A stretch of DNA of 64,000 bases from Nitrospirota bacterium. GTDB taxonomy: Bacteria; Nitrospirota; UBA9217. The notes under the pieces are model-generated. The model was not told the DNA's origin. It did not search any database and saw only the letters and a program-made list of their open reading frames with translations. Made by a program: the position numbers and the translations under genes. Shown in pieces: positions 9,028-61,244 of the stretch. The stretch lies in contig CAVUCU010000001.1 of assembly GCA_963740085.1 (NCBI GenBank), positions 1,536,001 to 1,600,000 on the forward strand, read 5' to 3'. The number at the start of each line of letters is the position of its first letter. The stretch's first letter is position 1.

Positions 9028-9103
9028 TGGCTCCCGGAGCAGGACTCGAACCTGCGGCATGGTGGTTAACAGCCACCCGCTCTACCAGCTGAGCTATCCG
9101 GGA
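9028..9103 (-). tRNA. tRNA-Asn(GTT)
   Basis: TCCCGGATAGCTCAGCTGGTAGAGC...CTGTTAA...GGTTCGAGTCC...CCA cloverleaf. Confidence 0.95.
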
Positions 9104-16809: not shown

Positions 16810-16922
16810 GCTCACAAACCCGGGCTTCCCTGCGGCACACCCGGAACCCGTTTACCGCTGCTTCCTTCCGGACCTGACGGGGTTCACGGGACCGTGATTG
16901 CGCAGGACCCGGGCTCATGAGC
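16810..16922 (-). ncRNA. ffs: signal recognition particle RNA (4.5S)
   Basis: Minus strand contains the conserved TCAGGTCCGGAAGGAAGCAGC domain IV within a long hairpin; canonical position upstream of dnaX. Confidence 0.93.
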
Positions 16923-16930
16923 GCTACTTT

Positions 16931-17021
16931 ACGAGTCTTATGGGTCCATCGAGTTTATGGAGTCTAATGAGCGTTAATTCTTTTACTCGTCAGACCCGCC
17001 ACCCGTGAGACTCTTAAGACT
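16931..17021. repeat. 9-mer-periodic palindromic element, copy 1
   Basis: GAGTCTTAT/GGGTCCATC/GAGTTTATG/GAGTCTAAT ... ACTCGTCAG/ACCCGTGAG/ACTCTTAAG. Confidence 0.7.
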
Positions 17022-17031
17022 GGTTTCAATA

Positions 17032-17119
17032 TGGCGGAGAGGGTGGGGTTCGAACCCACGTTAAGTTTCCCTAAACACGCTTTCCAAGCGTGCGCCTTCA
17101 GCCGCTCGGCCACCTCTCC
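17032..17119 (-). tRNA. tRNA-Ser(GGA)
   Basis: GGAGAGGTGGCCGAGCGG...TTGGAAA loop, long variable arm, GTTCGAA, GCCA end. Confidence 0.95.
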
Positions 17120-17130
17120 GGTTTGCTTCA

Positions 17131-17228
17131 GTCTGTTGAGTCCATTGCGTTTATAGAGTCTAACGAGTTTTAATATCCTTTACTCGTCAGACTCACCACT
17201 CGCTAAGACTCTTCACTATCGAAAGATC
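17131..17228. repeat. 9-mer-periodic palindromic element, copy 2
   Basis: GTCTGTT/GAGTCCATT/GCGTTTATA/GAGTCTAAC ... ACTCGTCAGACTC...AAGACTC. Confidence 0.7.
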
Positions 17229-17229
17229 A

Positions 17230-17320
17230 TGGCGGAGAGGGGGGGATTTGAACCCCCGGTGGAGTTACCCCCACAACAGTTTTCGAGACTGCCGCCTTCA
17301 GCCAGCTCGGCCACCTCTCC
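17230..17320 (-). tRNA. tRNA-Ser(CGA)
   Basis: CTCGAAA anticodon loop, long variable arm, GTTCAAATC, GCCA end. Confidence 0.95.
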
Positions 17321-17330
17321 GGATTGCTGC

Positions 17331-17418
17331 GGTCTGTTGAGTCCATCGAGTGCGGAAGGTCTAAAGAGTTTCGATTCCCTTACTCTTCAGACCCTGAACG
17401 TATGAGACTCCTCAGACC
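17331..17418. repeat. 9-mer-periodic palindromic element, copy 3 (overlaps tadA stop)
   Basis: GTCTGTT/GAGTCCATC/GAGTGCGGA/AGGTCTAAA/GAGT ... ACTCTTCAGACC...GAGACTCCTCAGACC. Confidence 0.65.
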
Positions 17419-17885
17419 TTCTCTCGTCGTTTTTCAAAAAACCCGGAGAGCACCTGACGGCATTCGGCCTCGAGCACTTCCGGCATGATTCGGTACACAT
17501 GATTCAACCTGCTGTCACGCACCACATCATACACGGACCCGAGTGCGCCGGCCTTGCGGTCCCGGCAGCCGTAGACCAGTCTGTTGACCCGCGCGAGCAC
17601 CAACGCGCCCGCACACATGAGGCAGGGTTCGAGGGTCACATACAGTGTTGCGTCAGTAAGGCGCCACCGGCCAAGCCTCGTCGAGGCCTCGCGGAGAACG
17701 ATCAATTCTGCATGGGCCGTAGGATCCTGCCAGGTCTCGCGCATATTGTGCGCCCTTGCGATGACCTCGCCACCGAGAACGAGCACCGCGCCTACCGGGG
17801 TTTCACCGCACGCAGCGGCCTTTTCGGCCTCGGCCAGCGCCAGGCGCATAAAATCTTCGTCGGTCCTGTTCTCTGGTCGGTTCAT
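17412..17885 (-). CDS. tadA: tRNA adenosine(34) deaminase
   Basis: E.PVGA, DPTAHAE, LYVTLEPC.MC.GA, LNH motifs. Confidence 0.95.
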   Translation of the reverse strand: MNRPENRTDEDFMRLALAEAEKAAACGETPVGAVLVLGGEVIARAHNMRETWQDPTAHAELIVLREASTRLGRWRLTDATLYVTLEPCLMCAGALVLARVNRLVYGCRDRKAGALGSVYDVVRDSRLNHVYRIMPEVLEAECRQVLSGFFEKRREKV

Positions 17886-17897
17886 CTTTTTTTAATA

Positions 17898-17974
17898 TGG
17901 TGCGCCCAAGAGGATTCGAACCTCTGGCCTACGGATTCGTAGTCCGTTGCTCTATCCAGCTGAGCTATGGGCGC
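17898..17974 (-). tRNA. tRNA-Arg(ACG)
   Basis: GCGCCCATAGCTCAGCTGGATAGAGC...CTACGAA...GGTTCGAATCC...ACCA. Confidence 0.95.
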
Positions 17975-18039
17975 AAAATAGAGCGCACAGATGCAGGGCT
18001 GCATCTGTGGACCGTTTTGCCGGGTTGAGCCTGTCGCGA

Positions 18040-18552
18040 CTACTTCGAAACGCCACCCACGAGCCTGATCGCGAGCTTCTCGTGGGGAAACGGATGGACA
18101 TCAGGAAACTTGGAATAAAGCCAGCCTTTCCACTCCTGCTTGCCCGGCTCGGTCACCGCCACCTGCACTGCAGGATTGTTCGGTTTATCGGAAGCCGTGG
18201 TAATTTCCTTCTCGCCCATCTTGAATTCCGGCAGGAACGCAAGAACCTTGATCTTGACCTTCGTGTCCGGAACGGCCAGCTCAGACCCTACGGCCACGGT
18301 ATATTCTTTCGTGTGCTTCGCGACCTTGTCTTCGATAGCGAGCTTTACCGCTGGCCATTTCGCGGCTACTTCTTTCGGAACCGCGACGGTACGGTCTACC
18401 TTCGGCATGTCAGCCGGCATCCCGGAAGGCGGCATCCCTCCCTGCACGCCCGGATGCCCTGGCGGCAACTGCGGCTTCTCCTCTTTTTTCTTACAACCGG
18501 CGACTGAAAACACAAGACCACTGACCAGGATAATTGCTAGAAGCTTCTTCAT
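18040..18552 (-). CDS. lipoprotein, DUF2155-like
   Basis: Lipobox VAGC, LPPGHP motif, F.P.F.M...IT.AS..PNNPA, GWLY.KFPDVH.F.H. Confidence 0.6.
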   Translation of the reverse strand: MKKLLAIILVSGLVFSVAGCKKKEEKPQLPPGHPGVQGGMPPSGMPADMPKVDRTVAVPKEVAAKWPAVKLAIEDKVAKHTKEYTVAVGSELAVPDTKVKIKVLAFLPEFKMGEKEITTASDKPNNPAVQVAVTEPGKQEWKGWLYSKFPDVHPFPHEKLAIRLVGGVSK

Positions 18553-18642
18553 TGTACGTCCTCCTTCGCTGCTCTTTTTTAATATCACTTACAGGCACTA
18601 TGCCCACTATAGCGTTATGCGTAGTCACGGACAAGATGAAAA

Positions 18643-18732
18643 TGGCGGAGAGGCCGGGATTCGAACCCGGGGTGGAGTCACCCCCACAACTGCTTAGCAG
18701 GCAGCTGCCTTCAGCCGCTCGGCCACCTCTCC
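18643..18732 (-). tRNA. tRNA-Ser(GCT)
   Basis: CTGCTAA anticodon loop, long variable arm, GTTCGAATC, GCCA. Confidence 0.95.
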
Positions 18733-18742
18733 GGTTTGCAAC

Positions 18743-18846
18743 GGTCTATTGAGTCTATCGAGTTGATGGAGTCTTAGCGTCTTAGCGTTCTAAATCCTTT
18801 ACTCGTCAGACTCGCCACTCGTAAGACTCTTTACTATCGAAAGATC
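18743..18846. repeat. 9-mer-periodic palindromic element, copy 4
   Basis: GTCTATT/GAGTCTATC/GAGTTGATG/GAGTCTTAG ... ACTCGTCAGACTCGCCACTCGTAAGACTC; near-identical tail to copy 2. Confidence 0.7.
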
Positions 18847-18932
<86 letters not shown>

Positions 18933-54883: not shown

Positions 54884-55613
54884 CTACGTCAACGGCGCTT
54901 TTTCGGCACGCCTTCTGCTTCCCGCGAGAAGATTGAGGGTTTCGACCATTCCGGAAAATCCCATCGCAAAGTAGATGTAGCCTTTGGGAATGTGGAACGC
55001 CAGGCCTTCCGCGATCAGCGTAACACCGACCATCAAGAGGAAGCTCAATGCCAGCATCTTGAGAGAGGGATGCTGGTGGATGTACGAGCTGATGACGCCC
55101 GAGGCAAGCAGCATGAGCATGAGCGCCAGGACCACCGCTGCGATCATGACCCCGGTCTGCTGCGCCATGCCGACGGCGGTTATCACCGAATCAAGCGAGA
55201 AGACGATATCCAGGAGAACGATCTGTACGATGATGGCGATAAAAGAATTTTTGCCCGTGATCGCAGGAACGTCCTCCTGCTTTCTCGAAAACGCCGTGGA
55301 TCTCGTGCGTCCCCTTCACCAGCAGGAAGAGCCCGCCGCCGATCATAATGAGATCCCGCACCGAGATTTGATTGTTCAGCACCGTAAAGAGCGGCGCCGT
55401 GAGGCTTGCCAGCCAGACGATCCCGAGCAGGAGCAGTATCCGCGTTATCAGCGCCAGACTGATGCCGATGGTCCGCGCCCTGGCCTGTTTTGCCAGCGGA
55501 AGTTTCTGGGCAAGGATCGAGATGATGACGATGTTGTCGATGCCCAGAATGATCTCAAGGACGGTCAATGTTGCAAGGCTGATCCAGATCTGTGAATCCG
55601 TTATCCATTCCAT
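54884..55613 (-). CDS. TerC family membrane protein (one frameshift near 55282)
   Basis: LEIILGIDN, GGLFLL.K...EI, then shifted-frame DIVFSLDSVITAVG, HP.LKMLAL.FL, KGYIYFAM.FS..VE.LN. Confidence 0.85.
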
Positions 55614-55675: not shown

Positions 55676-57694
55676 CTATTGCTTCTCGATGACAAACAGC
55701 AGCTGACCTTCCTGGACCGTCTCGTTGAGCTTGAAGCAGAGTTCTGCGATCTGGCCGTTGATGGGCGCGAGGATCGAATTTTCCATCTTCATGGCCTCAA
55801 GGTTCGCGATCTCTTCTCCCTTGTGGACGATGTCGCCGACCTTGATGGGCCCGCGGTCGGGATTGCCGATCCTCCAGATGTTGCCGTTGATCGGGGCGCC
55901 CACATCGTTCGGGCCCTTTGCCATCCGGGTCTCGACCTTCCTGGCGCGCGGGGTCGCTACCGTGTACACCCTCGTCTTGTTGTTCACCCGCATCACCACG
56001 TGGACAAAGCCGTCGTGTTCGGAACCGATCGAAACGAGCTCCACGGAGTAGGGCTTGCCCCAGAGATCGAAGTTTACCCGGTCGCCCGGTTTTTTCAAGC
56101 CTTCTCGCCAGACGTCGGTGGGGAGGGCCAGCGGCGCGTCGCCGTACTGGTCGCGGAAGCCGATGTATTCCAGGGCGTCCTTCGGGTGCATGAGGTAAAG
56201 CACGAACTCCTCATCCGTCACGGTCCTGCCGAGGCTGTCCCCCAGTTCTTTTCTCAGTTTTTCGAGGTCGTCGTTGGCCACGGATTCGAGCGGCGACGTT
56301 TCCTTCCGTTCCCTGATCTTCGCGGTCCATTCCTCGCCAAACGTACTCTGGTATACCCAGTCCGCCGGCCAGCCAATCGGCAGCCTCCCGTAGTTGCCGA
56401 GCAGCAGGTTCTTGAAATCGCCCGGGGCGCTCCGGAAGAGCATCAGCAGCTCGTCCCGCTCGTCCTTCGACAGTGAACCGATGTCCTGCGCCTGTTCCTC
56501 GACGAACCTGACCATGAGCGCGATGACGTGCTTCACTCCCGCGTCGCCGCGCTCCTTGGCATAGCGGTTGATGATCCCGCTGCAGGTGACCCAGGTGATC
56601 TGGGACCCGGGCGTGACATCGAAGTATTTCACGATCCGGTTGTACAGTGACATAAGCTTCAGGACCGCGGGCATGAGGTGGAGGAACTCCGCCTTCTGCG
56701 CCTGCTCGAACGAGCTGGGGAACGCGCCCCCGGGCATCTTGTGGCGCGTGACCGTGTGGTCAAGCCCCTTGAAGGGCGACTCGGCCCACTCGTAGTGGCC
56801 GATCCAGTCGCGCACCTTCTGGACAGCGGCCTCGGCATGGGGCCGGCTGAGATGCACCGGGACCCCCATCTCCTCAAAGAGCGCATGGACCGCCAGGATG
56901 GGTGAATGGCCGTAGAAACGGACCAGGGAGTCCTCCTCCACATCAATGATCTGCGCGCCGGCCTTTGCGGCGGACAGCAGGGCAGGGATCGCCAGCCCGT
57001 CGGTAATATGCCGGTGATAGTTGATCACCAACGTGGGGTATTTCTGTTTTATGGCGCTGATCAGGTTGCCGATCCTCGTGACATCGCCGACGCCGGCCAT
57101 GTCCTTGACGCACAGGACGATCTCGTCAACGCCTGAGCACAGGTCAATGATGTCTTTCACGACCCGGAGATAGTATTCGTTCGTGGCCCAGTCCGCGGTG
57201 GTGAAGGAGATGGTCGGCTCGAAGACCCGTCCCCGCTTCATCACGACCTCGGCGACGGTGCGCATGTTCCGCACGTCGTTCAGGAAGGAGAAGCACCGCC
57301 AGATATCGATGTCCACCTGTCCCACGGCATACTCGATCACGTTTTTCGGGTAGGGGCGATAGCCCCAGAGGTTGGTCTCGCGGATCAGGGTCTGGAGCAG
57401 CACGTCCGGCATGAGCTCGCGGAGCAGGGCCGTCTCTTCGAACGGGCTTTCCCTCCGGTTCATGATGCCCACATGCCACCTGGCCCCGCCGTGGCACTCG
57501 GCGCTGAAGAGCCCCATGTGCTCATAGGAGGGGGCAAGGGTCTTCAGGTCATAGATGCGGTGGCGGTTCTTGAAGTCCGACTGGCCGGCGTCCCGCATCC
57601 CGACCGAGGTAAAGCAGACCTTGTTCAGCGCGCGAAGCGCCTGCACGATCTCTTTCGGCGACATCCCGGGTTTGACAAAAACAGTATCAGCCAT
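55676..57694 (-). CDS. pyruvate carboxylase-like subunit B (carboxyltransferase + biotin carrier)
   Basis: RDAGQS, KDMAG, HxH, MPGG, VTP.SQ, biotinylation EAMKMEN. Confidence 0.75.
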   Translation of the reverse strand: MADTVFVKPGMSPKEIVQALRALNKVCFTSVGMRDAGQSDFKNRHRIYDLKTLAPSYEHMGLFSAECHGGARWHVGIMNRRESPFEETALLRELMPDVLLQTLIRETNLWGYRPYPKNVIEYAVGQVDIDIWRCFSFLNDVRNMRTVAEVVMKRGRVFEPTISFTTADWATNEYYLRVVKDIIDLCSGVDEIVLCVKDMAGVGDVTRIGNLISAIKQKYPTLVINYHRHITDGLAIPALLSAAKAGAQIIDVEEDSLVRFYGHSPILAVHALFEEMGVPVHLSRPHAEAAVQKVRDWIGHYEWAESPFKGLDHTVTRHKMPGGAFPSSFEQAQKAEFLHLMPAVLKLMSLYNRIVKYFDVTPGSQITWVTCSGIINRYAKERGDAGVKHVIALMVRFVEEQAQDIGSLSKDERDELLMLFRSAPGDFKNLLLGNYGRLPIGWPADWVYQSTFGEEWTAKIRERKETSPLESVANDDLEKLRKELGDSLGRTVTDEEFVLYLMHPKDALEYIGFRDQYGDAPLALPTDVWREGLKKPGDRVNFDLWGKPYSVELVSIGSEHDGFVHVVMRVNNKTRVYTVATPRARKVETRMAKGPNDVGAPINGNIWRIGNPDRGPIKVGDIVHKGEEIANLEAMKMENSILAPINGQIAELCFKLNETVQEGQLLFVIEKQ

Positions 57695-57740: not shown

Positions 57741-59198
57741 TCACATCCATTTCTGCGGTCCCAGGGCCGAGATTTCGGCCACGTACCGTGCGATCTTAAG
57801 CACCTCGTCTTCGCTGTTTCGCTCGCGGAACTTGGAGATCAACTCATCCATGTGCTCCTCGATGAACCGTGTGGAAAAATCTCCGGATATGAACGACGGG
57901 TGCCGGATGATGCTGAGCAAGAGGGGCTGCAGCGTCTTTACGCCCTCGACCCTGAGGTTCCTGCCGAGCGAGCGGTCCATTACCTGTATCGCGTCTTTCC
58001 GGTCCGCGCCGGCGGTCATGAGCAGCATGAACAGCGAATCATAATAGGGCGGGATGTCCCCGCCCTCATACACGCCCGAGGCCACGCGCACATTCGGGCC
58101 CATCGGCACCTGCAGCCGGGTGATCGCGCCGAAGGAGGGGCTGAAGCTCTTCGGGTCCTCCGCATTGATCCGGACCTCGAGCGCCCACCGGTTGGGACGG
58201 ATGGTGGTCTGCTTGAACGGCAGCTTCTTGCCCAGGGCCACGTCGATCATGATGCCCACGATATCGAGGCCGGTGATCAGTTCCGTGATGCCGTGCTCCA
58301 CCTGCAGCCGGGTGTTGACCTCGAGGAAATAGAACTTCCTGGTCGCGGAATCGAAAATATATTCCACGGTACCCGCGGAGGTATAGCCGATCTCGCGCAT
58401 CAGGCGCGTCGCAGAAAAACAGATCTCCTGGCGCAGCCCGTCGTCGAGGCTCGGGGACGGCGCTTCTTCGATGATCTTCTGGTTCCTCCGCTGGATCGTG
58501 CACTCCCGCTCATAGAGATGGATCACATTGCCGTGCTCGTCAGCGACGATCTGGACCTCGATATGACGCCCCCGTTCGATATACTTCTCAACCAGTATGG
58601 TCTCGTCGCCAAAGGACTTCCTTGCCTCGGAACGGGCCCGCGCCAGGCCCTGCGCCAGATCCCCGTCGTTCTCGACCTTGACCATTCCTTTTCCGCCCCC
58701 GCCTGCCGAGGCCTTGATCATGATCGGATAGGCAACCCCGTCCTTTTTCATCCAGGTCTTGATCTGCTCGATGTCCGTGACCGCGTCGATTCCCGGGATG
58801 GTCGGCACATTGGCCTTCCTCGCCAGTGCTTTCGCCTCGATCTTGTCCCCCAGCATGCGGATGACCGCGGGCGACGGACCGATCCATATCAGCCCGGCAT
58901 CCATCACTTTCTGCGCGAACTCGGCGTTCTCCGCCAGAAAACCCCAACCCGGATGGATGGCGTCCGACCTGCTTTGCAGCGCGGCATTGATCATCTTGTC
59001 CATGTTGAGATAGGATTCACTCGGCGGCGCGTCGCCGATATGTACGGCCTCGTCCGCCATGAACACGTGATGGGCAAGACGGTCGGGGTCGCTGTATACC
59101 GCGGTGGTGGGGATCTTGCGGTCCCGGCACGTGTGCATGACCCGGACCGCGGGAACGCCCCGGTTCGCGATCAGGATCTTCTTGATCGTTCTCTTCAT
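57741..59198 (-). CDS. biotin carboxylase (pyruvate carboxylase subunit A-like)
   Basis: KILIANRG, IHPG.GFLAEN, KA..GGGGKG, ERECTIQRRNQK, EVNTRLQVEH, YYDS. Confidence 0.9.
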   Translation of the reverse strand: MKRTIKKILIANRGVPAVRVMHTCRDRKIPTTAVYSDPDRLAHHVFMADEAVHIGDAPPSESYLNMDKMINAALQSRSDAIHPGWGFLAENAEFAQKVMDAGLIWIGPSPAVIRMLGDKIEAKALARKANVPTIPGIDAVTDIEQIKTWMKKDGVAYPIMIKASAGGGGKGMVKVENDGDLAQGLARARSEARKSFGDETILVEKYIERGRHIEVQIVADEHGNVIHLYERECTIQRRNQKIIEEAPSPSLDDGLRQEICFSATRLMREIGYTSAGTVEYIFDSATRKFYFLEVNTRLQVEHGITELITGLDIVGIMIDVALGKKLPFKQTTIRPNRWALEVRINAEDPKSFSPSFGAITRLQVPMGPNVRVASGVYEGGDIPPYYDSLFMLLMTAGADRKDAIQVMDRSLGRNLRVEGVKTLQPLLLSIIRHPSFISGDFSTRFIEEHMDELISKFRERNSEDEVLKIARYVAEISALGPQKWM

Positions 59199-59331
59199 TG
59201 GGGTCTCCTGTACTCTTCGGTAAATCCCGTTAGAGAATGATTTCTCTAACAGTCGTGGATCGTGGCTTCGGATGTTGTTCCAAGGCATGCGATATCAGCC
59301 GCCGGCAGAATGCCGCATTCCCTCATGGGGT

Positions 59332-59498
59332 AAAAAAAACCTTTACCCGATGAAGAAGGATGCATTCCTGTTCACCCTGGTAAAGGTCTCGATTGTCAAG
59401 CTTCCCCGGTCAGGAGTGTTATGGGCGGCAAAACAGCATTCGGTCCAAAACCGCCGCCACTCCTGTGTTCGTCCCTGCTCATTCCAGGGTGAATCTCA
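59332..59498 (-). promoter_or_regulatory. candidate riboswitch/attenuator leader with intrinsic terminator
   Basis: 10-bp stem (59484-59493 with 59371-59380) overlapping the 5' arm of terminator CCTTTACC...GGTAAAGG-T8; TTGACA at 59522-59527. Confidence 0.6.
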
Positions 59499-59621
59499 TA
59501 TTATTTGAGAAGACCGCTCGTTGTCAAGTTATTATTACTTCGACCGACGGGATTGTTGCTTCGCCGGCCCGCCTCAATAAACGATGGTACCCTTCCCCGT
59601 CTTAATCTGGTATAATCAAAT

Positions 59622-61244
59622 ATGCAAATCATCCGATACCAGGTCAGATTTTTTCGGGGTGTTGCCCTTTTTCTCCGGATACTTCTGAGCTATAAGTTTT
59701 TCTCATTCAGAAATACCTTTGCCTCCCCGGCTGCGCGAAAAGAACGGCTCAAACGGTTGCACGCGGAAAACGCCTTTGTGCTGCGCGAGCGCATGATCGA
59801 GATGCGCGGCGTTCTGATCAAGATAGGCCAGTTCCTGTCCTCGCGCGTGGACATCCTTCCGGAGGAGTACACGACGGAGTTGTCCAAGCTCCAGGACCAC
59901 GTGCCCCCCGCGGACCTCGCGCAGATCATGAAGCGGGTCATCGAGGAGATCGGCCCGCCGGAGGACGTGTTTGCGTCTTTTGATGAGACGCCCATTGCCT
60001 CGGCCTCGCTCGGGCAGGTGCATCGCGCCACTCTCAAGAGCGGCGAGCATATTGCGGTCAAGGTCCAGTATCCCGGCATCGAAGAAGTGATCGCGGCGGA
60101 TATCCGTACGTTCCGCTTCATCATAAAGCTTCTCAAGGTCTTCTACCGGCGCATCAATCTCGACGTCATCTACTCCGAATTCTCCCGCATTATCCACGAA
60201 GAGCTGGACTATATCCAGGAAGGAAAGAACGCGGCGGCCTTTGCCAGAAACTTTGCCGATAATCCGAAGATCAGAATTCCCGCAGTATACTGGCAGTTCA
60301 CCACGTCCAAGGTACTGACGCTCGAATATCTCGACGGCGCCAAGATCACGGATTTCGATTCCATTGACGCGCTCGGGATCGACCGGAAAGAGGTGGCGCG
60401 GGCCCTTGCCGAGGCATTTTGTCATATGTTCTTCACCGACGGTCTGTACCACGGCGATCCTCATCCCGGCAATATCTTCGTCCGCCCCGGCCCCGAGATC
60501 GTCCTCGTTGATTTCGGCATGGTGGACCGCATCTCGACCCCGAAAAAGGAAGGGCTCAAACGCGCCTTTACCGCGATCATGGAGCGAGACAGCCTGGGGC
60601 TCGTCCGGGCGCTCGTGGATATGGGGTTCATCCCGCTGACCCGGAATCTTCAACCCCTGGTTCAGTTCGTGGACAGGATTTTCGTGAAATACCGCGACAT
60701 CTCGCCCAGCGAGTTCAAGGCCATGGACATCGAAGAAATGGGAAACGATATCATGGAGGCCCTCCGGCTCAGCCCCTCGATCCAGATCCCGAACGACTTC
60801 ATCCTGTTCGGCAGGGTCATGGGCATGCTGAACGGTCTCGGGTCTCAGCTCGATCCCGATACCAATATCATTGAGATCGCGACGCCCTTTGCCAAGCGCT
60901 TTATCATGGCCGAGGAGATGTCGGCAACCGCCATCTTCGGACATGCAGGCGTTACCGCCCGCGCGCTGGTGAGACTGCCGAAGCTGTTGTCCGATTTTCT
61001 GGTGTCCACGGGTCGGAACGAAATGCGGGTGGAGGTCACTTCGCGGGACGTCGTGGGGGAGCTCATCATCCTCTCGCGCATCGGCAAGGGCATGATCCTC
61101 GCGTTTCTCACCGTGGGGGCGGGCCTGGCCGCGGTCATGCTCCGGATCAATCATTTTAACACAGAGGCCGCCTGGTTGACGGCCGTCTGCGCCATCTTTT
61201 TAATCAGGATCTTTATGCTCATCCGCCGTTCAAGACGGCCGTGA
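59622..61244 (+). CDS. ABC1/UbiB (AarF) family kinase
   Basis: IK.GQ.LS.R.D, LQD.VP, PIASASLGQVH.A, VKVQYP, ELDY..E, HGDPHPGN, DFGM. Confidence 0.9.
   Translation: MQIIRYQVRFFRGVALFLRILLSYKFFSFRNTFASPAARKERLKRLHAENAFVLRERMIEMRGVLIKIGQFLSSRVDILPEEYTTELSKLQDHVPPADLAQIMKRVIEEIGPPEDVFASFDETPIASASLGQVHRATLKSGEHIAVKVQYPGIEEVIAADIRTFRFIIKLLKVFYRRINLDVIYSEFSRIIHEELDYIQEGKNAAAFARNFADNPKIRIPAVYWQFTTSKVLTLEYLDGAKITDFDSIDALGIDRKEVARALAEAFCHMFFTDGLYHGDPHPGNIFVRPGPEIVLVDFGMVDRISTPKKEGLKRAFTAIMERDSLGLVRALVDMGFIPLTRNLQPLVQFVDRIFVKYRDISPSEFKAMDIEEMGNDIMEALRLSPSIQIPNDFILFGRVMGMLNGLGSQLDPDTNIIEIATPFAKRFIMAEEMSATAIFGHAGVTARALVRLPKLLSDFLVSTGRNEMRVEVTSRDVVGELIILSRIGKGMILAFLTVGAGLAAVMLRINHFNTEAAWLTAVCAIFLIRIFMLIRRSRRP

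What the first reader, a model, noticed from the sequence alone, without database searches (positions are those of the whole stretch)
59332..59527. Candidate novel ON-type riboswitch ahead of the pycA-pycB-terC operon
Seen (minus strand): TTGACA..AATAAT promoter, then UUCACCCUGG-aauGAGCAGGgacgaaca-[CAGGAGUG-GCGGCGG...GCCGCC..CACUCCUG]-aCCGGGgaagcuugacaauCGAGACCUUUA-CCAGGGUGAA. The 3' strand of the 10-bp closing stem is also part of the 5' arm of a terminator (CCUUUACC...GGUAAAGG-U8), so the two folds are mutually exclusive. Known: this is the logic of transcriptional ON switches, and TerC genes are typical targets of metal-sensing riboswitches. Inference: the GAGCAG/CCGG/GAGAC junctions recall NiCo (czcD) and the CGAGACCUUU end recalls yybP-ykoY, but neither fits fully, so it may be a variant or new class linking a metal or metabolite signal to carboxylase expression.
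Basis: partly seen in the sequence, partly recalled or inferred. Interest (0 to 1): 0.75.

Follow-up and report, generated by a model that had tools for sequence, protein, structure and literature searches.

The report
Remodelled manganese-riboswitch leader before carboxylase operon
The RNA leader in front of this bacterium's pyruvate-carboxylase-like operon is a conserved, terminator-bearing descendant of the well-known manganese riboswitch that has lost the half of the sensor that normally binds the metal, so it is a new variant of a known regulator whose signal is now unknown.

Summary
The promoter, a 10-bp long-range helix, an inner hairpin and a strong terminator that competes with the helix all lie at 59527-59332 on the minus strand.

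It is not an unrelated new class. It descends from the yybP-ykoY Mn2+ riboswitch. Sister genera of the same order (Nitrospirota, by record titles) carry full canonical versions. One of them sits before a carbonic anhydrase-pycA operon, with the same promoter position and a homologous terminator.

The window's leader keeps the 3' half (P4 remnant..ACAAUCGAGACCUUU.., terminator) and a P3 hairpin. It lacks the 5' strand of P1.1 and L1 (AAAGGGGAGUAGC) and the G-C pair of P1.2. A model built from the canonical relatives finds E. coli mntP but not this leader.

The variant occurs only before pycA. Its 3' block is more conserved than synonymous sites, and its terminator is kept in 20 of 20. It is therefore most likely still a working attenuator.

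A 6-bp core is shared by some lineages. The ligand is unknown.

Verdict: new variant of a known kind, moderate interest.

The parts
59500..59527 (-). Sigma-70-type promoter: TTGACA, 16 nt, AATAAT. An extended CTTGACAA -35 with an A/T-rich upstream stretch is conserved in all variant leaders.
   Evidence: 11 of 12 matches; same promoter at the same distance in 20 of 20 variant leaders and at the equivalent place in canonical relatives. The transcription start is inferred (about 59497-59490), not measured.
59484..59493 (-). 5' strand (UUCACCCUGG) of the long-range helix proposed as antiterminator. It overlaps the 5' strand of the local hairpin.
   Evidence: 10 of 10 pairs in the window only. The core UCACCY/RGGUGA (6 contiguous pairs) is also present in the 6 g3-type leaders and L141.
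59473..59489 (-). Local 5' hairpin CCCUG-GAAUGAG-CAGGG. It competes with the long-range helix for the same pyrimidine stretch.
   Evidence: U-A in the window against C-G in G003 is a compensatory change. A 5' hairpin of differing sequence is predicted in 18 of 20 variant leaders.
59466..59472 (-). Single-stranded linker ACGAACA(C). (C)GAACAC is conserved in 9 of 10 g1-type leaders. It may be a relic of the L3 loop (CGUCAaCAC in canonical relatives).
   Evidence: alignment A3, columns 29-35; comparison with A2. The homology to L3 is inference.
59411..59465 (-). P3 hairpin (CAGGAGUG...CACUCCUG) with a 3'-side A-rich bulge. It corresponds in position to P3 of the canonical family.
   Evidence: 14 predicted pairs, several with compensatory changes, for example A-U to G-C at columns 37/99.
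59385..59410 (-). Most conserved block, ACCGGGGAAGCUUGACAAUCGAGACC. It is the remnant of P4 (CGGG/CUUG) plus the 3' strands of P1.2 and L1 of the Mn2+ riboswitch. The family's invariant GC is replaced by UC.
   Evidence: invariant or >=90% conserved columns in 20 variant leaders; identity to the window is 0.80-1.0 in 18 of 19 relatives, while pycA third codon positions are at 0.51-0.81.
59371..59380 (-). 3' strand (CCAGGGUGAA) of the long-range helix. It is also the upper part of the terminator's 5' arm.
59332..59388 (-). Intrinsic terminator: GACCUUUACC..GGUGAA / UUCAUC..GGUAAAGGU stem, then U8.
   Evidence: 96.7% of 299 cells pair across 20 leaders.: -19.7 to -27.4 kcal/mol in 20 of 20.
59214..59331 (-). 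Variable spacer between terminator and ribosome-binding site. It contains a perfect hairpin GUUAGAGAA/UUCUCUAAC at 59250-59229.
   Evidence: in 10 of 19 relatives the terminator ends only about 21-24 nt before the start codon; contigs of related strains skip 115-118 nt here or carry other sequence.
57741..59198 (-). pycA-like biotin carboxylase subunit. AGGAG at 59209-59205, ATG at 59198.
   Evidence: The best NCBIfam similarity is to the N-terminal half of pyruvate carboxylase, below the equivalog cut-off.
55676..57694 (-). pycB-like carboxyltransferase plus biotinyl carrier subunit.
54884..55613 (-). TerC-family membrane protein gene, split over two reading frames in this assembly.
   Evidence: Relatives have open frames of 245-268 aa.

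Best explanation
The element is a lineage-specific, remodelled descendant of the yybP-ykoY (Mn2+) riboswitch. It still works as a transcription-attenuating leader of the pycA-pycB(-terC) operon.

Shown:
- It shares the promoter position, P3, the P4 remnant, the ..ACAA(U/G)CRAGACCUUU.. strand and the terminator with canonical yybP-ykoY RNAs of sister genera. One of those controls the orthologous carboxylase operon.
- It lacks the 5' strand that forms P1.1, L1 and P1.2 in the family.
- Its 3' block and terminator are under purifying selection.
- Its 5' half keeps two hairpins while the sequence drifts.

Inferred: the strong terminator stops most transcripts by default. pycA can only be expressed by read-through, because in many relatives there is no room for another promoter.

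Inferred for this species: read-through is favoured when the transcript's 5' end (UUCACCCUGG) pairs with the upper 5' arm of the terminator (CCAGGGUGAA). This is a switch helix of the same ON logic as the parent's P1.1, displaced about 7 nt downstream. It competes with a small local 5' hairpin that uses the same pyrimidine stretch.

What tips the balance is not known. It could be residual metal binding by the conserved block with the GAACAC linker, another ligand, or a protein that reads the conserved block. Mn2+ is the first candidate only by descent and gene context.
For: Homology:
- blastn and a covariance model of the 3' half (R1) link the window leader (96.9 bits) to leaders of 7 of 8 same-genus genomes and 4 of 4 genomes of genus g3. 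They also link it to canonical-looking RNAs in other genera of the order (27 of 64 genomes with a match).
- The 16 canonical RNAs form P1.1/L1/P1.2/P3.1/L3/P3.2/P4 with 31 predicted pairs. 17 of these pairs carry compensatory changes.
- A model built only from them (R2) finds one hit in 17 kb of E. coli, in the mntP 5' UTR (24 bits, E 5.5e-5). It also finds a copy not used in training at 95.7 bits.
- mntP is a studied yybP-ykoY member (PMC12153347, abstract and introduction read).
- In G022 a canonical copy precedes carbonic anhydrase and then pycA. Its PycA groups with the variant-bearing PycAs: a clade of 25 rows, SH-aLRT 99, on the quick tree.

Function retained:
- The terminator is kept in 20 of 20 variant leaders, at -19.7 to -27.4 kcal/mol.
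- In 10 of 19 relatives the terminator ends about 21-24 nt before the start codon.
- The 25-nt pre-terminator block is 0.80-1.0 identical to the window in 18 of 19 relatives. pycA third codon positions are 0.51-0.81 identical.
- Two hairpins are predicted in the 5' half of 18 of 20 leaders, with z <= -2 in 11 of 20. Compensatory changes occur in P3 and in the 5' hairpins.

Gene association: 15 of 17 metagenome stretches that match the variant's 3' signature are followed by pycA. The other 2 end at the contig edge.

Switch helix in this species: 10 of 10 pairs, z = -4.3. It is adopted in the fold of the transcript lacking the terminator's 3' arm.

Mechanism of the parent family: Mn2+ stabilises P1.1 against strand invasion by the terminator (PMC6754395, passages read).
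Against: - No covariation supports the long-range helix. It drops to 8 of 10 pairs in the 95%-identical G003 leader and to 1-5 of 10 in 7 of 20 leaders.
- One low-depth environmental contig shows G59375 to A without compensation.
- The duplex test is significant only for the window. The window was chosen because of this helix, so selection bias applies.
- That test is also weak. The real P1.1 of 5 canonical relatives gives z of only +0.25 to -1.8.
- Different lineages retain different pieces of the old aptamer: P1.1 in L007 and L155, P3.1/L3 in L142, GUAGC in g3. This pattern also fits decay after loss of sensing.
- The transcription start is only inferred. If it lies 3-4 nt further downstream, the helix loses its UUC.
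- No RNA data exist for the organism.
- Sequence cannot show ligand binding.
Confidence: 0.6

Rival explanations
1. Decayed relic. The Mn2+ aptamer was inactivated in the ancestor of these genera. What remains is a terminator that attenuates at a fixed, unregulated level, or is controlled only by general factors. The 5' hairpins are kept merely to protect the mRNA 5' end, for example against RNase J, which this genome encodes.
For: - The hallmark 5' strand AAAGGGGAGUAGC and the P1.2 G-C pair are gone.
- The canonical model scores 4 of 21 variant or intermediate loci at only 13.8-15.8 bits and does not report the window. True copies score 94-96 bits.
- Different lineages kept different fragments.
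- 10 of 11 variant-bearing genomes have no canonical copy at all. The genus may have given up riboswitch-based Mn2+ sensing.
- One related lineage (L063) kept the promoter but lost the whole leader.
- RNase J lies in the window.
Against: - The 25 nt upstream of the terminator are not needed for termination. Yet they are more conserved than synonymous sites, and more invariant than the same region in working canonical riboswitches.
- P3 keeps pairing through compensatory changes.
- A strong terminator directly before an anaplerotic enzyme gene in 20 of 20 lineages is hard to explain without regulated read-through.
Confidence: 0.2
2. Protein- or RNA-operated attenuator. After the metal sensor was lost, the conserved single-stranded block CUUGACAAUCRAGA next to the terminator became the binding site of an antiterminator protein or a trans-acting RNA. 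Alternatively it became the seed of a terminated leader that itself acts as a small RNA.
For: - The sequence of the block is invariant, not its pairing. No covariation was found in either the P4 remnant or the alternative local hairpin.
- No intrinsically stable antiterminator exists in most lineages. The local hairpin is only -3.4 to -11.9 kcal/mol, mostly no better than shuffles.
- The layout is a conserved unpaired stretch followed by a terminator with a U-tail.
Against: No candidate binding protein or partner RNA was identified, and no known protein-binding motif was recognised. This is an inference by exclusion only. The retained P3 and 5' hairpins are not explained.
Confidence: 0.15
3. 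One reading: an independent, new riboswitch class (ON type, NiCo-like junctions) that senses a metal or metabolite through the domain closed by the 10-bp helix.
For: The helix and its exclusivity with the terminator are real in the window. No Rfam family matches.
Against: - The leader is demonstrably homologous to yybP-ykoY RNAs, so it is not independent.
- The Rfam negative is uninformative for this family. RF00080 of this release also misses the canonical relatives: 0 matches at E <= 1 in 12 loci, and 16.4 bits at best for L012. It passes its cut-off in only 2 of 14 control genomes.
- The helix is not conserved as a 10-bp element.
Confidence: 0.05

Closest known systems
yybP-ykoY Mn2+ riboswitch (Rfam RF00080), transcriptional ON type
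   Same: - Same promoter-to-RNA distance as the canonical relatives.
- P3 hairpin, P4 position, 3' strand ..ACAAnCRAGACCUUU...
- The CCUUU segment doubles as the 5' arm of an intrinsic terminator.
- TerC lies in the operon.
- Orthologous to a canonical copy before the carbonic anhydrase-pycA operon of a sister genus.
- ON logic, in which a 5'/3' helix competes with the terminator.
   Different: - No AAAGG 5' strand of P1.1 and no GGGGAGUAG L1 strand, which carries the conserved adenosine and metal-contacting phosphates (per PMC12153347 and PMC6754395).
- The invariant G-C of P1.2 is lost (GC to UC).
- P4 is reduced to C-G, G-U, G-U, G-C.
- There is no L3 internal loop on the 5' side of P3, only a GAACAC linker.
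- The candidate switch helix is displaced about 7 nt downstream.
- A model of canonical relatives does not score it.
- The controlled gene is a carboxylase, not an exporter.
E. coli alx-type (three-way-junction) yybP-ykoY aptamers
   Same: The canonical relatives in this order also lack P2 and form a three-way junction. PMC12153347 describes this variation within the family, so deviation in helices and in L3 sequence is tolerated.
   Different: alx keeps L1, L3 and P1.1. The window's leader does not keep L1 or the P1.1 5' strand.
NiCo (czcD) riboswitch
   Same: A metal-related gene context (TerC) and a multi-helix domain closed by a helix that competes with a terminator.
   Different: No match to the family at E <= 10. 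All recognisable sequence similarity is to yybP-ykoY.
Classical multi-hairpin transcription attenuators (1:2 / 1:3 / 3:4 pairing schemes)
   Same: In the window, region 1 (UUCACCCUGG) can pair either with region 2 (CAGGG, the local hairpin) or with region 3 (the terminator's 5' arm). Region 3 otherwise pairs with region 4, the terminator's 3' arm.
   Different: No leader peptide is evident. A 6-codon ORF starts at about the inferred transcription start, has no ribosome-binding site and is not conserved. No known sensing partner exists.

Membership tests
yybP-ykoY Mn2+ riboswitch (RF00080) | Scores above the family's covariance-model threshold | tested here: not met
   No RF00080 match at gathering or at E <= 10. 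Caveat: this release's model also misses canonical relatives and passes its cut-off in only 2 of 14 control genomes. My own model R2 of 16 canonical relatives does not report the window leader at E <= 10. It gives 94-96 bits for true copies and 24 bits for E. coli mntP.
yybP-ykoY Mn2+ riboswitch (RF00080) | P1.1 switch helix: the 5' strand (..AAAGG) pairs with the 3' strand (CCUUU..), which is shared with the expression platform | tested here: not met
   The 3' strand is present and shared with the terminator (59386-59379). No 5' partner exists beyond AGGG/CCUU, 4 pairs of which 1 is G-U. P1.1 is retained only in relatives L007, L155 and L080.
yybP-ykoY Mn2+ riboswitch (RF00080) | L1 loop with the conserved 5' strand GGGGAGUAG (extruded adenosine, metal-contacting phosphates) | tested here: not met
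   Absent from the window and from 20 of 20 variant leaders. It is invariant in the 16 canonical relatives. The role of L1 is taken from PMC12153347 (introduction) and PMC6754395 (passages).
yybP-ykoY Mn2+ riboswitch (RF00080) | L3 loop on the 5' side of P3 with the invariant discriminator adenosine | tested here: inconclusive
   Canonical relatives have AUCGUCAnCACG. The window has ACGAACAC directly before P3 and no P3.1. The similarity is limited to AACAC.
yybP-ykoY Mn2+ riboswitch (RF00080) | P3 and P4 hairpins plus the conserved 3' strand ..GCRAGACC.. | tested here: inconclusive
   P3 is kept, with compensatory changes. P4 is reduced to 4 pairs without covariation. The strand is kept as AAUCGAGACC, but the invariant G of GC is replaced.
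yybP-ykoY Mn2+ riboswitch (RF00080) | Common descent with family members (orthologous position, shared flanks) | tested here: met
   Shared promoter spacing and terminator with canonical copies: R1 gives 85.5 bits for the canonical G022 leader and 96.9 bits for the window. Both precede pycA. Their PycAs fall in one clade, SH-aLRT 99 on the quick tree.
yybP-ykoY Mn2+ riboswitch (RF00080) | Binds Mn2+ and raises expression | not testable with these tools
   Needs in-line probing, ITC or termination assays.
NiCo (czcD) riboswitch | Match to the family model | tested here: not met
   No match at E <= 10 in 59150-59650.
Intrinsic-terminator attenuator | G+C-rich hairpin followed by a U-tract between the promoter and the start codon, with an alternative pairing of its 5' arm | tested here: met

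The most novel reading that the evidence does not exclude
The pycA leader is a new riboswitch class born from the Mn2+ riboswitch scaffold. The old L1/P1.1 5' strand was discarded. The invariant 3' block (ACCGGGGAAGCUUGACAAUCGAGACCUUU), together with the GAACAC linker and P3, now forms a different pocket. That pocket senses something other than Mn2+, such as another divalent metal or a metabolite tied to anaplerosis. It switches a register-shifted helix to control a pyruvate-carboxylase-type enzyme. This would be the first riboswitch known to govern that step.
Probability: 0.2. Interest if true: 0.8.

Novelty: new variant of a known kind. Interest (0 to 1): 0.5.

Why it matters
- It shows a riboswitch caught in remodelling. 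Half of a well-understood metal sensor has been replaced, while the other half and the expression platform stay under strong selection. Intermediate forms survive in neighbouring lineages. This is a natural series for asking how aptamers lose or change specificity.
- In this order (Nitrospirota, by record titles), canonical Mn2+ riboswitches precede anaplerotic carboxylation genes as well as exporters. These are carbonic anhydrase plus a pycA-like carboxylase, and an archaeal-type PEP carboxylase. My four literature searches found no paper linking the family to these enzymes. Searches returned 0 papers. One search returned 7 papers and listed 6. The one I opened mentions PEP carboxylase and the riboswitch in unrelated passages. 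Judging by title and abstract, the other five listed looked unrelated. One search returned 3 papers, unrelated by title and abstract. If the association is real, it links metal availability to C3-to-C4 carboxylation.
- A practical point: the current Rfam model of the family misses these members. Searches that rely on it will undercount the family in such lineages.

Tried and rejected
- Rfam at gathering and at E <= 10: nothing relevant. This was later shown to be uninformative for this family.
- Pairing of the 5' end with the GGGGAAG region as an alternative closing helix: no better than shuffles in any of 20 leaders, mean z +0.38. Rejected as a general feature.
- Local antiterminator hairpin GGGGAAG...CUUUACC. 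Pairing potential is 92.7% of 259 cells, but covariation is no better than shuffles (145 of 500 reach it). It is weak at -3.4 to -11.9 kcal/mol, with z better than -2 in only 1 of 20. It is kept only as a possibility.
- A repeated ACAATC DNA motif as an operator: present upstream of the promoter in only 6 of 20 variant leaders. Rejected.
- Leader peptide: only a 6-codon ORF at the inferred start, without a ribosome-binding site and not conserved (my reading). Rejected.
- Internal promoter at the leader's TTGACA: no acceptable -10 at 16-18 nt (my reading). Rejected.
- Search at the level of the order repeated the family search, because the order holds the same 64 genomes.
- Expression data: no RNA holder listed. 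The four runs laid are DNA contigs, so they say nothing on starts or ends.
- PycA tree. The careful search did not finish, so only the quick tree is reported. One row (L117) was dropped for short coverage. The tree does not resolve whether the canonical G022 leader is basal or nested, so the order of events stays open.
- Dambach et al. 2015 (PMC4376352) is not held. Its gene-association lists, and the supplements of the other papers, could not be checked. They may already mention carboxylase genes.
Full report
**What is there**

On the minus strand lie the following elements.
- A near-consensus promoter: TTGACA at 59527-59522, a 16-nt spacer, AATAAT at 59505-59500. This is 11 of 12 matches, and the 800-nt scan found 2 sites against 0.5 expected.
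- A small hairpin, CCCUG-GAAUGAG-CAGGG, at 59489-59473.
- A linker, ACGAACA.
- A long hairpin, CAGGAGUG...CACUCCUG, at 59465-59411.
- The stretch ACCGGGGAAGCUUGACAAUCGAGACC, at 59410-59385.
- A strong hairpin, GACCUUUACC..GGUGAA / UUCAUC..GGUAAAGGU, followed by U8 at 59388-59332.

The leader folds far better than shuffles: -63.9 kcal/mol, z = -3.83, and 0 of 200 shuffles fold as well. It is unusual for this composition (z = -4.3). It excludes the terminator: -49.3 kcal/mol with the helix enforced, against -61.1 kcal/mol with the terminator.

The genes downstream are these.
- A biotin carboxylase at 57741-59198.
- A carboxyltransferase with a biotinyl domain at 55676-57694. Both proteins are most similar to the two halves of pyruvate carboxylase. 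They score below the equivalog cut-offs, so a related 2-oxoacid carboxylase cannot be excluded. That caveat comes from my own knowledge.
- TerC at 54884-55613.
- RNase J.

**Databases**

Rfam gives nothing at the leader, at gathering or at E <= 10. That negative turned out to say little, as explained below.

**Relatives**

By blastn the whole leader is found in 7 of 8 genomes of the same genus. The eighth genome is 68% complete. Only the 3' 80-90 nt are found in other genera of the family. Reading those loci showed two things.

First, two of them (G022, G032) start with GUAAAGGGGAGUAGC and end with AAGCRAGACCUUU plus a terminator. I recognised this as the yybP-ykoY pattern.

Second, G022's copy has the same promoter spacing and a clearly homologous terminator. 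It is followed by a carbonic anhydrase gene and then pycA.

A covariance model of the 3' half plus terminator (R1) found matches in 27 of the 64 genomes of the family. The order holds the same 64 genomes. The pycA leaders of genera g1 and g3 score 70.7-99.7 bits. Sixteen canonical-looking RNAs score lower.

Those 16 align into P1.1, L1, P1.2, P3.1, L3, P3.2 and P4. There are 31 predicted pairs, and 17 of them carry compensatory changes. This is the three-way-junction version of the architecture described for the family (PMC12153347, introduction and one results section read).

Among the 10 downstream ORFs scanned:
- 5 are P-type cation ATPases;
- 2 are SPFH/Band-7 proteins;
- 1 is carbonic anhydrase (followed by pycA);
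- 1 is an archaeal-type PEP carboxylase (PEPcase_2, 632.8 bits);
- 1 is a zinc-ribbon ORF of uncertain reality.

**Are the canonical RNAs really yybP-ykoY?**

Rfam's RF00080 of this release does not see them. L012 scores 16.4 bits, L013 gives no match, and 12 further loci give 0 matches at E <= 1. In the tool's own control the model passes its cut-off in only 2 of 14 well-known genomes.

I therefore built a model (R2) from the 16 RNAs alone and ran it on 17 kb of E. coli K-12 around mntP. The single hit (24 bits, E 5.5e-5) lies in the mntP 5' UTR and aligns GGGGAGUAGC and GCGAGACC. mntP is a studied member of the family (PMC12153347). A copy in G006 that was not used for training scores 95.7 bits. 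The identification holds.

**How the window's leader differs**

- R2 does not report it at E <= 10. Among 21 variant or intermediate loci, only 4 are reported, at 13.8-15.8 bits.
- The 5' strand that forms P1.1, L1 and P1.2 is missing. No AAAGGGGAGUAG-type motif followed by RAGACCUUU exists anywhere in the genome.
- The family's invariant GC of the P1.2 3' strand is UC.
- P4 is reduced to C-G, G-U, G-U, G-C.
- No L3 internal loop precedes P3. Only (C)GAACAC remains, which resembles the AACAC of some canonical L3 loops.

According to the structural literature, L1 supplies the conserved adenosine and phosphates of the metal site. Mn2+ acts by stabilising P1.1 against the terminator (PMC6754395, passages; PMC12153347, introduction). 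The canonical Mn2+ site therefore cannot form here. Membership in the family as an aptamer is not met. Descent from the family is.

**Is it a dead relic?**

Several results argue that it is not.
- A pattern for the variant's 3' signature found 17 metagenome stretches. 15 are followed by pycA, and the other 2 end at the contig edge. Several of the 17 duplicate genomes I already held.
- Together with the genomes, this gives 20 distinct variant leaders.
- The terminator is intact in 20 of 20: 96.7% of 299 cells pair, at -19.7 to -27.4 kcal/mol.
- In 10 of 19 relatives the terminator ends about 21-24 nt before the start codon. pycA can then only be made by read-through.
- The 25 nt before the terminator are 0.80-1.0 identical to the window in 18 of 19 relatives. 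pycA third codon positions have fallen to 0.51-0.81. The same region varies freely, with covariation, in the canonical riboswitches.
- The 5' half has diverged to the level of synonymous sites (0.52-0.58 in the distant leaders). It still folds into two hairpins in 18 of 20, with z <= -2 in 11 of 20. Compensatory changes occur in P3 and in the first hairpin.

Other results argue for decay.
- Different lineages keep different fragments of the old aptamer: P1.1 in L007 and L155, P3.1/L3 in L142, GUAGC in g3.
- One related lineage kept the promoter but deleted the leader (L063).
- 10 of 11 variant-bearing genomes tested have no canonical copy.

**The proposed switch helix**

At the homologous positions the number of possible pairs out of 10 is as follows.

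| Leaders | Pairs of 10 |
|---|---|
| Window | 10 |
| G003 (95% identical overall) | 8, interrupted by two C-A mismatches |
| G001 | 7 |
| The six g3-type leaders, G006, m141 and m153 | 6-7. The g3-type leaders and m141 have a contiguous core UCACCY/RGGUGA. |
| The remaining 7 | 1-5 |

Random 10-mers of the same RNAs give about 3.5 pairs, with maxima of 6-8. The helix therefore has a shared 6-bp core in some distant lineages. It is a 10-bp element only in this species. It has no compensatory change, whereas the competing local hairpin has one (U-A in the window, C-G in G003).

A composition-controlled duplex test is significant only for the window. The same test gives z of only +0.25 to -1.8 for the genuine P1.1 of five canonical relatives. 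It therefore cannot exclude short helices.

A low-depth environmental contig about 98% identical to the window has G59375 changed to A, with no change on the other strand.

Two alternative pairings were tested and found no better than chance. These were the 5' end with GGGGAAG, and a local hairpin GGGGAAG/CUUUACC.

**Most likely mechanism**

The element is a transcription attenuator inherited from an ON-type Mn2+ riboswitch. The terminator forms by default. Read-through needs the terminator's 5' arm to be held by an upstream partner.

In this species the partner is most plausibly the transcript's 5' end. That makes a switch helix displaced about 7 nt from the ancestral P1.1. It competes with the small 5' hairpin, in a 1:2 / 1:3 / 3:4 arrangement.

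The invariant block between P3 and the helix is the best candidate for whatever reads the signal. The signal could be residual metal binding, a new ligand or a protein. These last steps are inference.

I give 0.6 to 'functional remodelled descendant', 0.2 to 'unregulated relic', 0.15 to 'protein- or RNA-operated' and 0.05 to 'independent new class'.

**Context and limits**

The genome belongs to Nitrospirota. The record titles of the nearest PycA loci read Nitrospirota or Thermodesulfovibrionales MAGs.

On a quick PycA tree, 22 variant-bearing rows, the canonical-bearing G022 row and 2 leaderless rows form one clade (SH-aLRT 99). The order of events inside it is unresolved. One row was dropped before tree building.

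Paper supplements and Dambach et al. 2015 could not be read.

Four literature searches found no paper tying yybP-ykoY or manganese riboswitches to pyruvate or PEP carboxylase genes. One review calls PEP carboxylase Mn2+-dependent (PMC9315381, passages).

**Verdict**

This is a real and conserved element. It is not a new class from nothing. It is a new variant of the Mn2+ riboswitch lineage with a dismantled sensor and an unknown input. Interest is moderate.

Noticed in passing
window 54884-55613 (-): The TerC gene is split into two overlapping ORFs in different frames (140 aa and 100 aa, junction near 55186-55200). Five same-genus relatives have single open frames of 245-268 aa. In G003 the window's ORF1 tail matches a second frame. 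This is either a frameshift pseudogene or an assembly indel. terC directly follows pycB in G003 and G004. In G001 and G005 it lies about 12 kb away.
   Followed up: partly
L049 (G011), L012/L062 (G022), L052, L057: Canonical yybP-ykoY RNAs of this order precede an archaeal-type PEP carboxylase (PEPcase_2), a carbonic anhydrase-pycA operon and SPFH/Band-7 genes, besides the usual P-type ATPases. Anaplerotic carboxylation seems to be part of the Mn2+ riboswitch regulon here.
   Followed up: partly
Rfam RF00080 as held: The 177-position 'Manganese' model of this Rfam release misses canonical-looking yybP-ykoY RNAs: 0 matches at E <= 1 in 12 loci. It passes its own cut-off in only 2 of 14 control genomes. 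A small home-made model found E. coli mntP. Scans that rely on this model will under-call the family.
   Followed up: partly
window 59214-59331 (-); L002, L004-L006, L153, L156: The spacer between terminator and pycA is a variable insertion. Related strains skip 115-118 nt here or carry 161 other letters. Relatives carry unrelated repeat-like inserts of 200-500 nt, while others have none. The window's spacer holds a perfect 9-bp hairpin at 59250-59229.
   Followed up: no
L063 (JAOUEV010000007.1), upstream of pycA: A related lineage keeps the CTTGACAA...AATAAT promoter but has no leader or terminator. This is a natural deletion of the whole element.
   Followed up: no
L155, L080, L007: These leaders are intermediate forms. 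L155 and L080 keep P1.1 and carry AAGGGAUGUUGC / AAAGGGAUGAGUUG in place of AAAGGGGAGUAGC. L007 keeps UAAAGG but not L1. They may still be working aptamers with an altered L1.
   Followed up: partly
G000 whole genome; G001, G003-G005, G007, G008, G010, G027, G035: 10 of 11 variant-bearing genomes have no canonical yybP-ykoY copy detectable with model R2. Only G006 has any, with two. Completeness ranges from 86% to 100%.
   Followed up: yes
window 16815-18932 (-) and 9031-9103 (-): Bacterial small SRP RNA (73 bits) lies next to a cluster of five tRNA genes. One further tRNA lies at about 9.0 kb.
   Followed up: no
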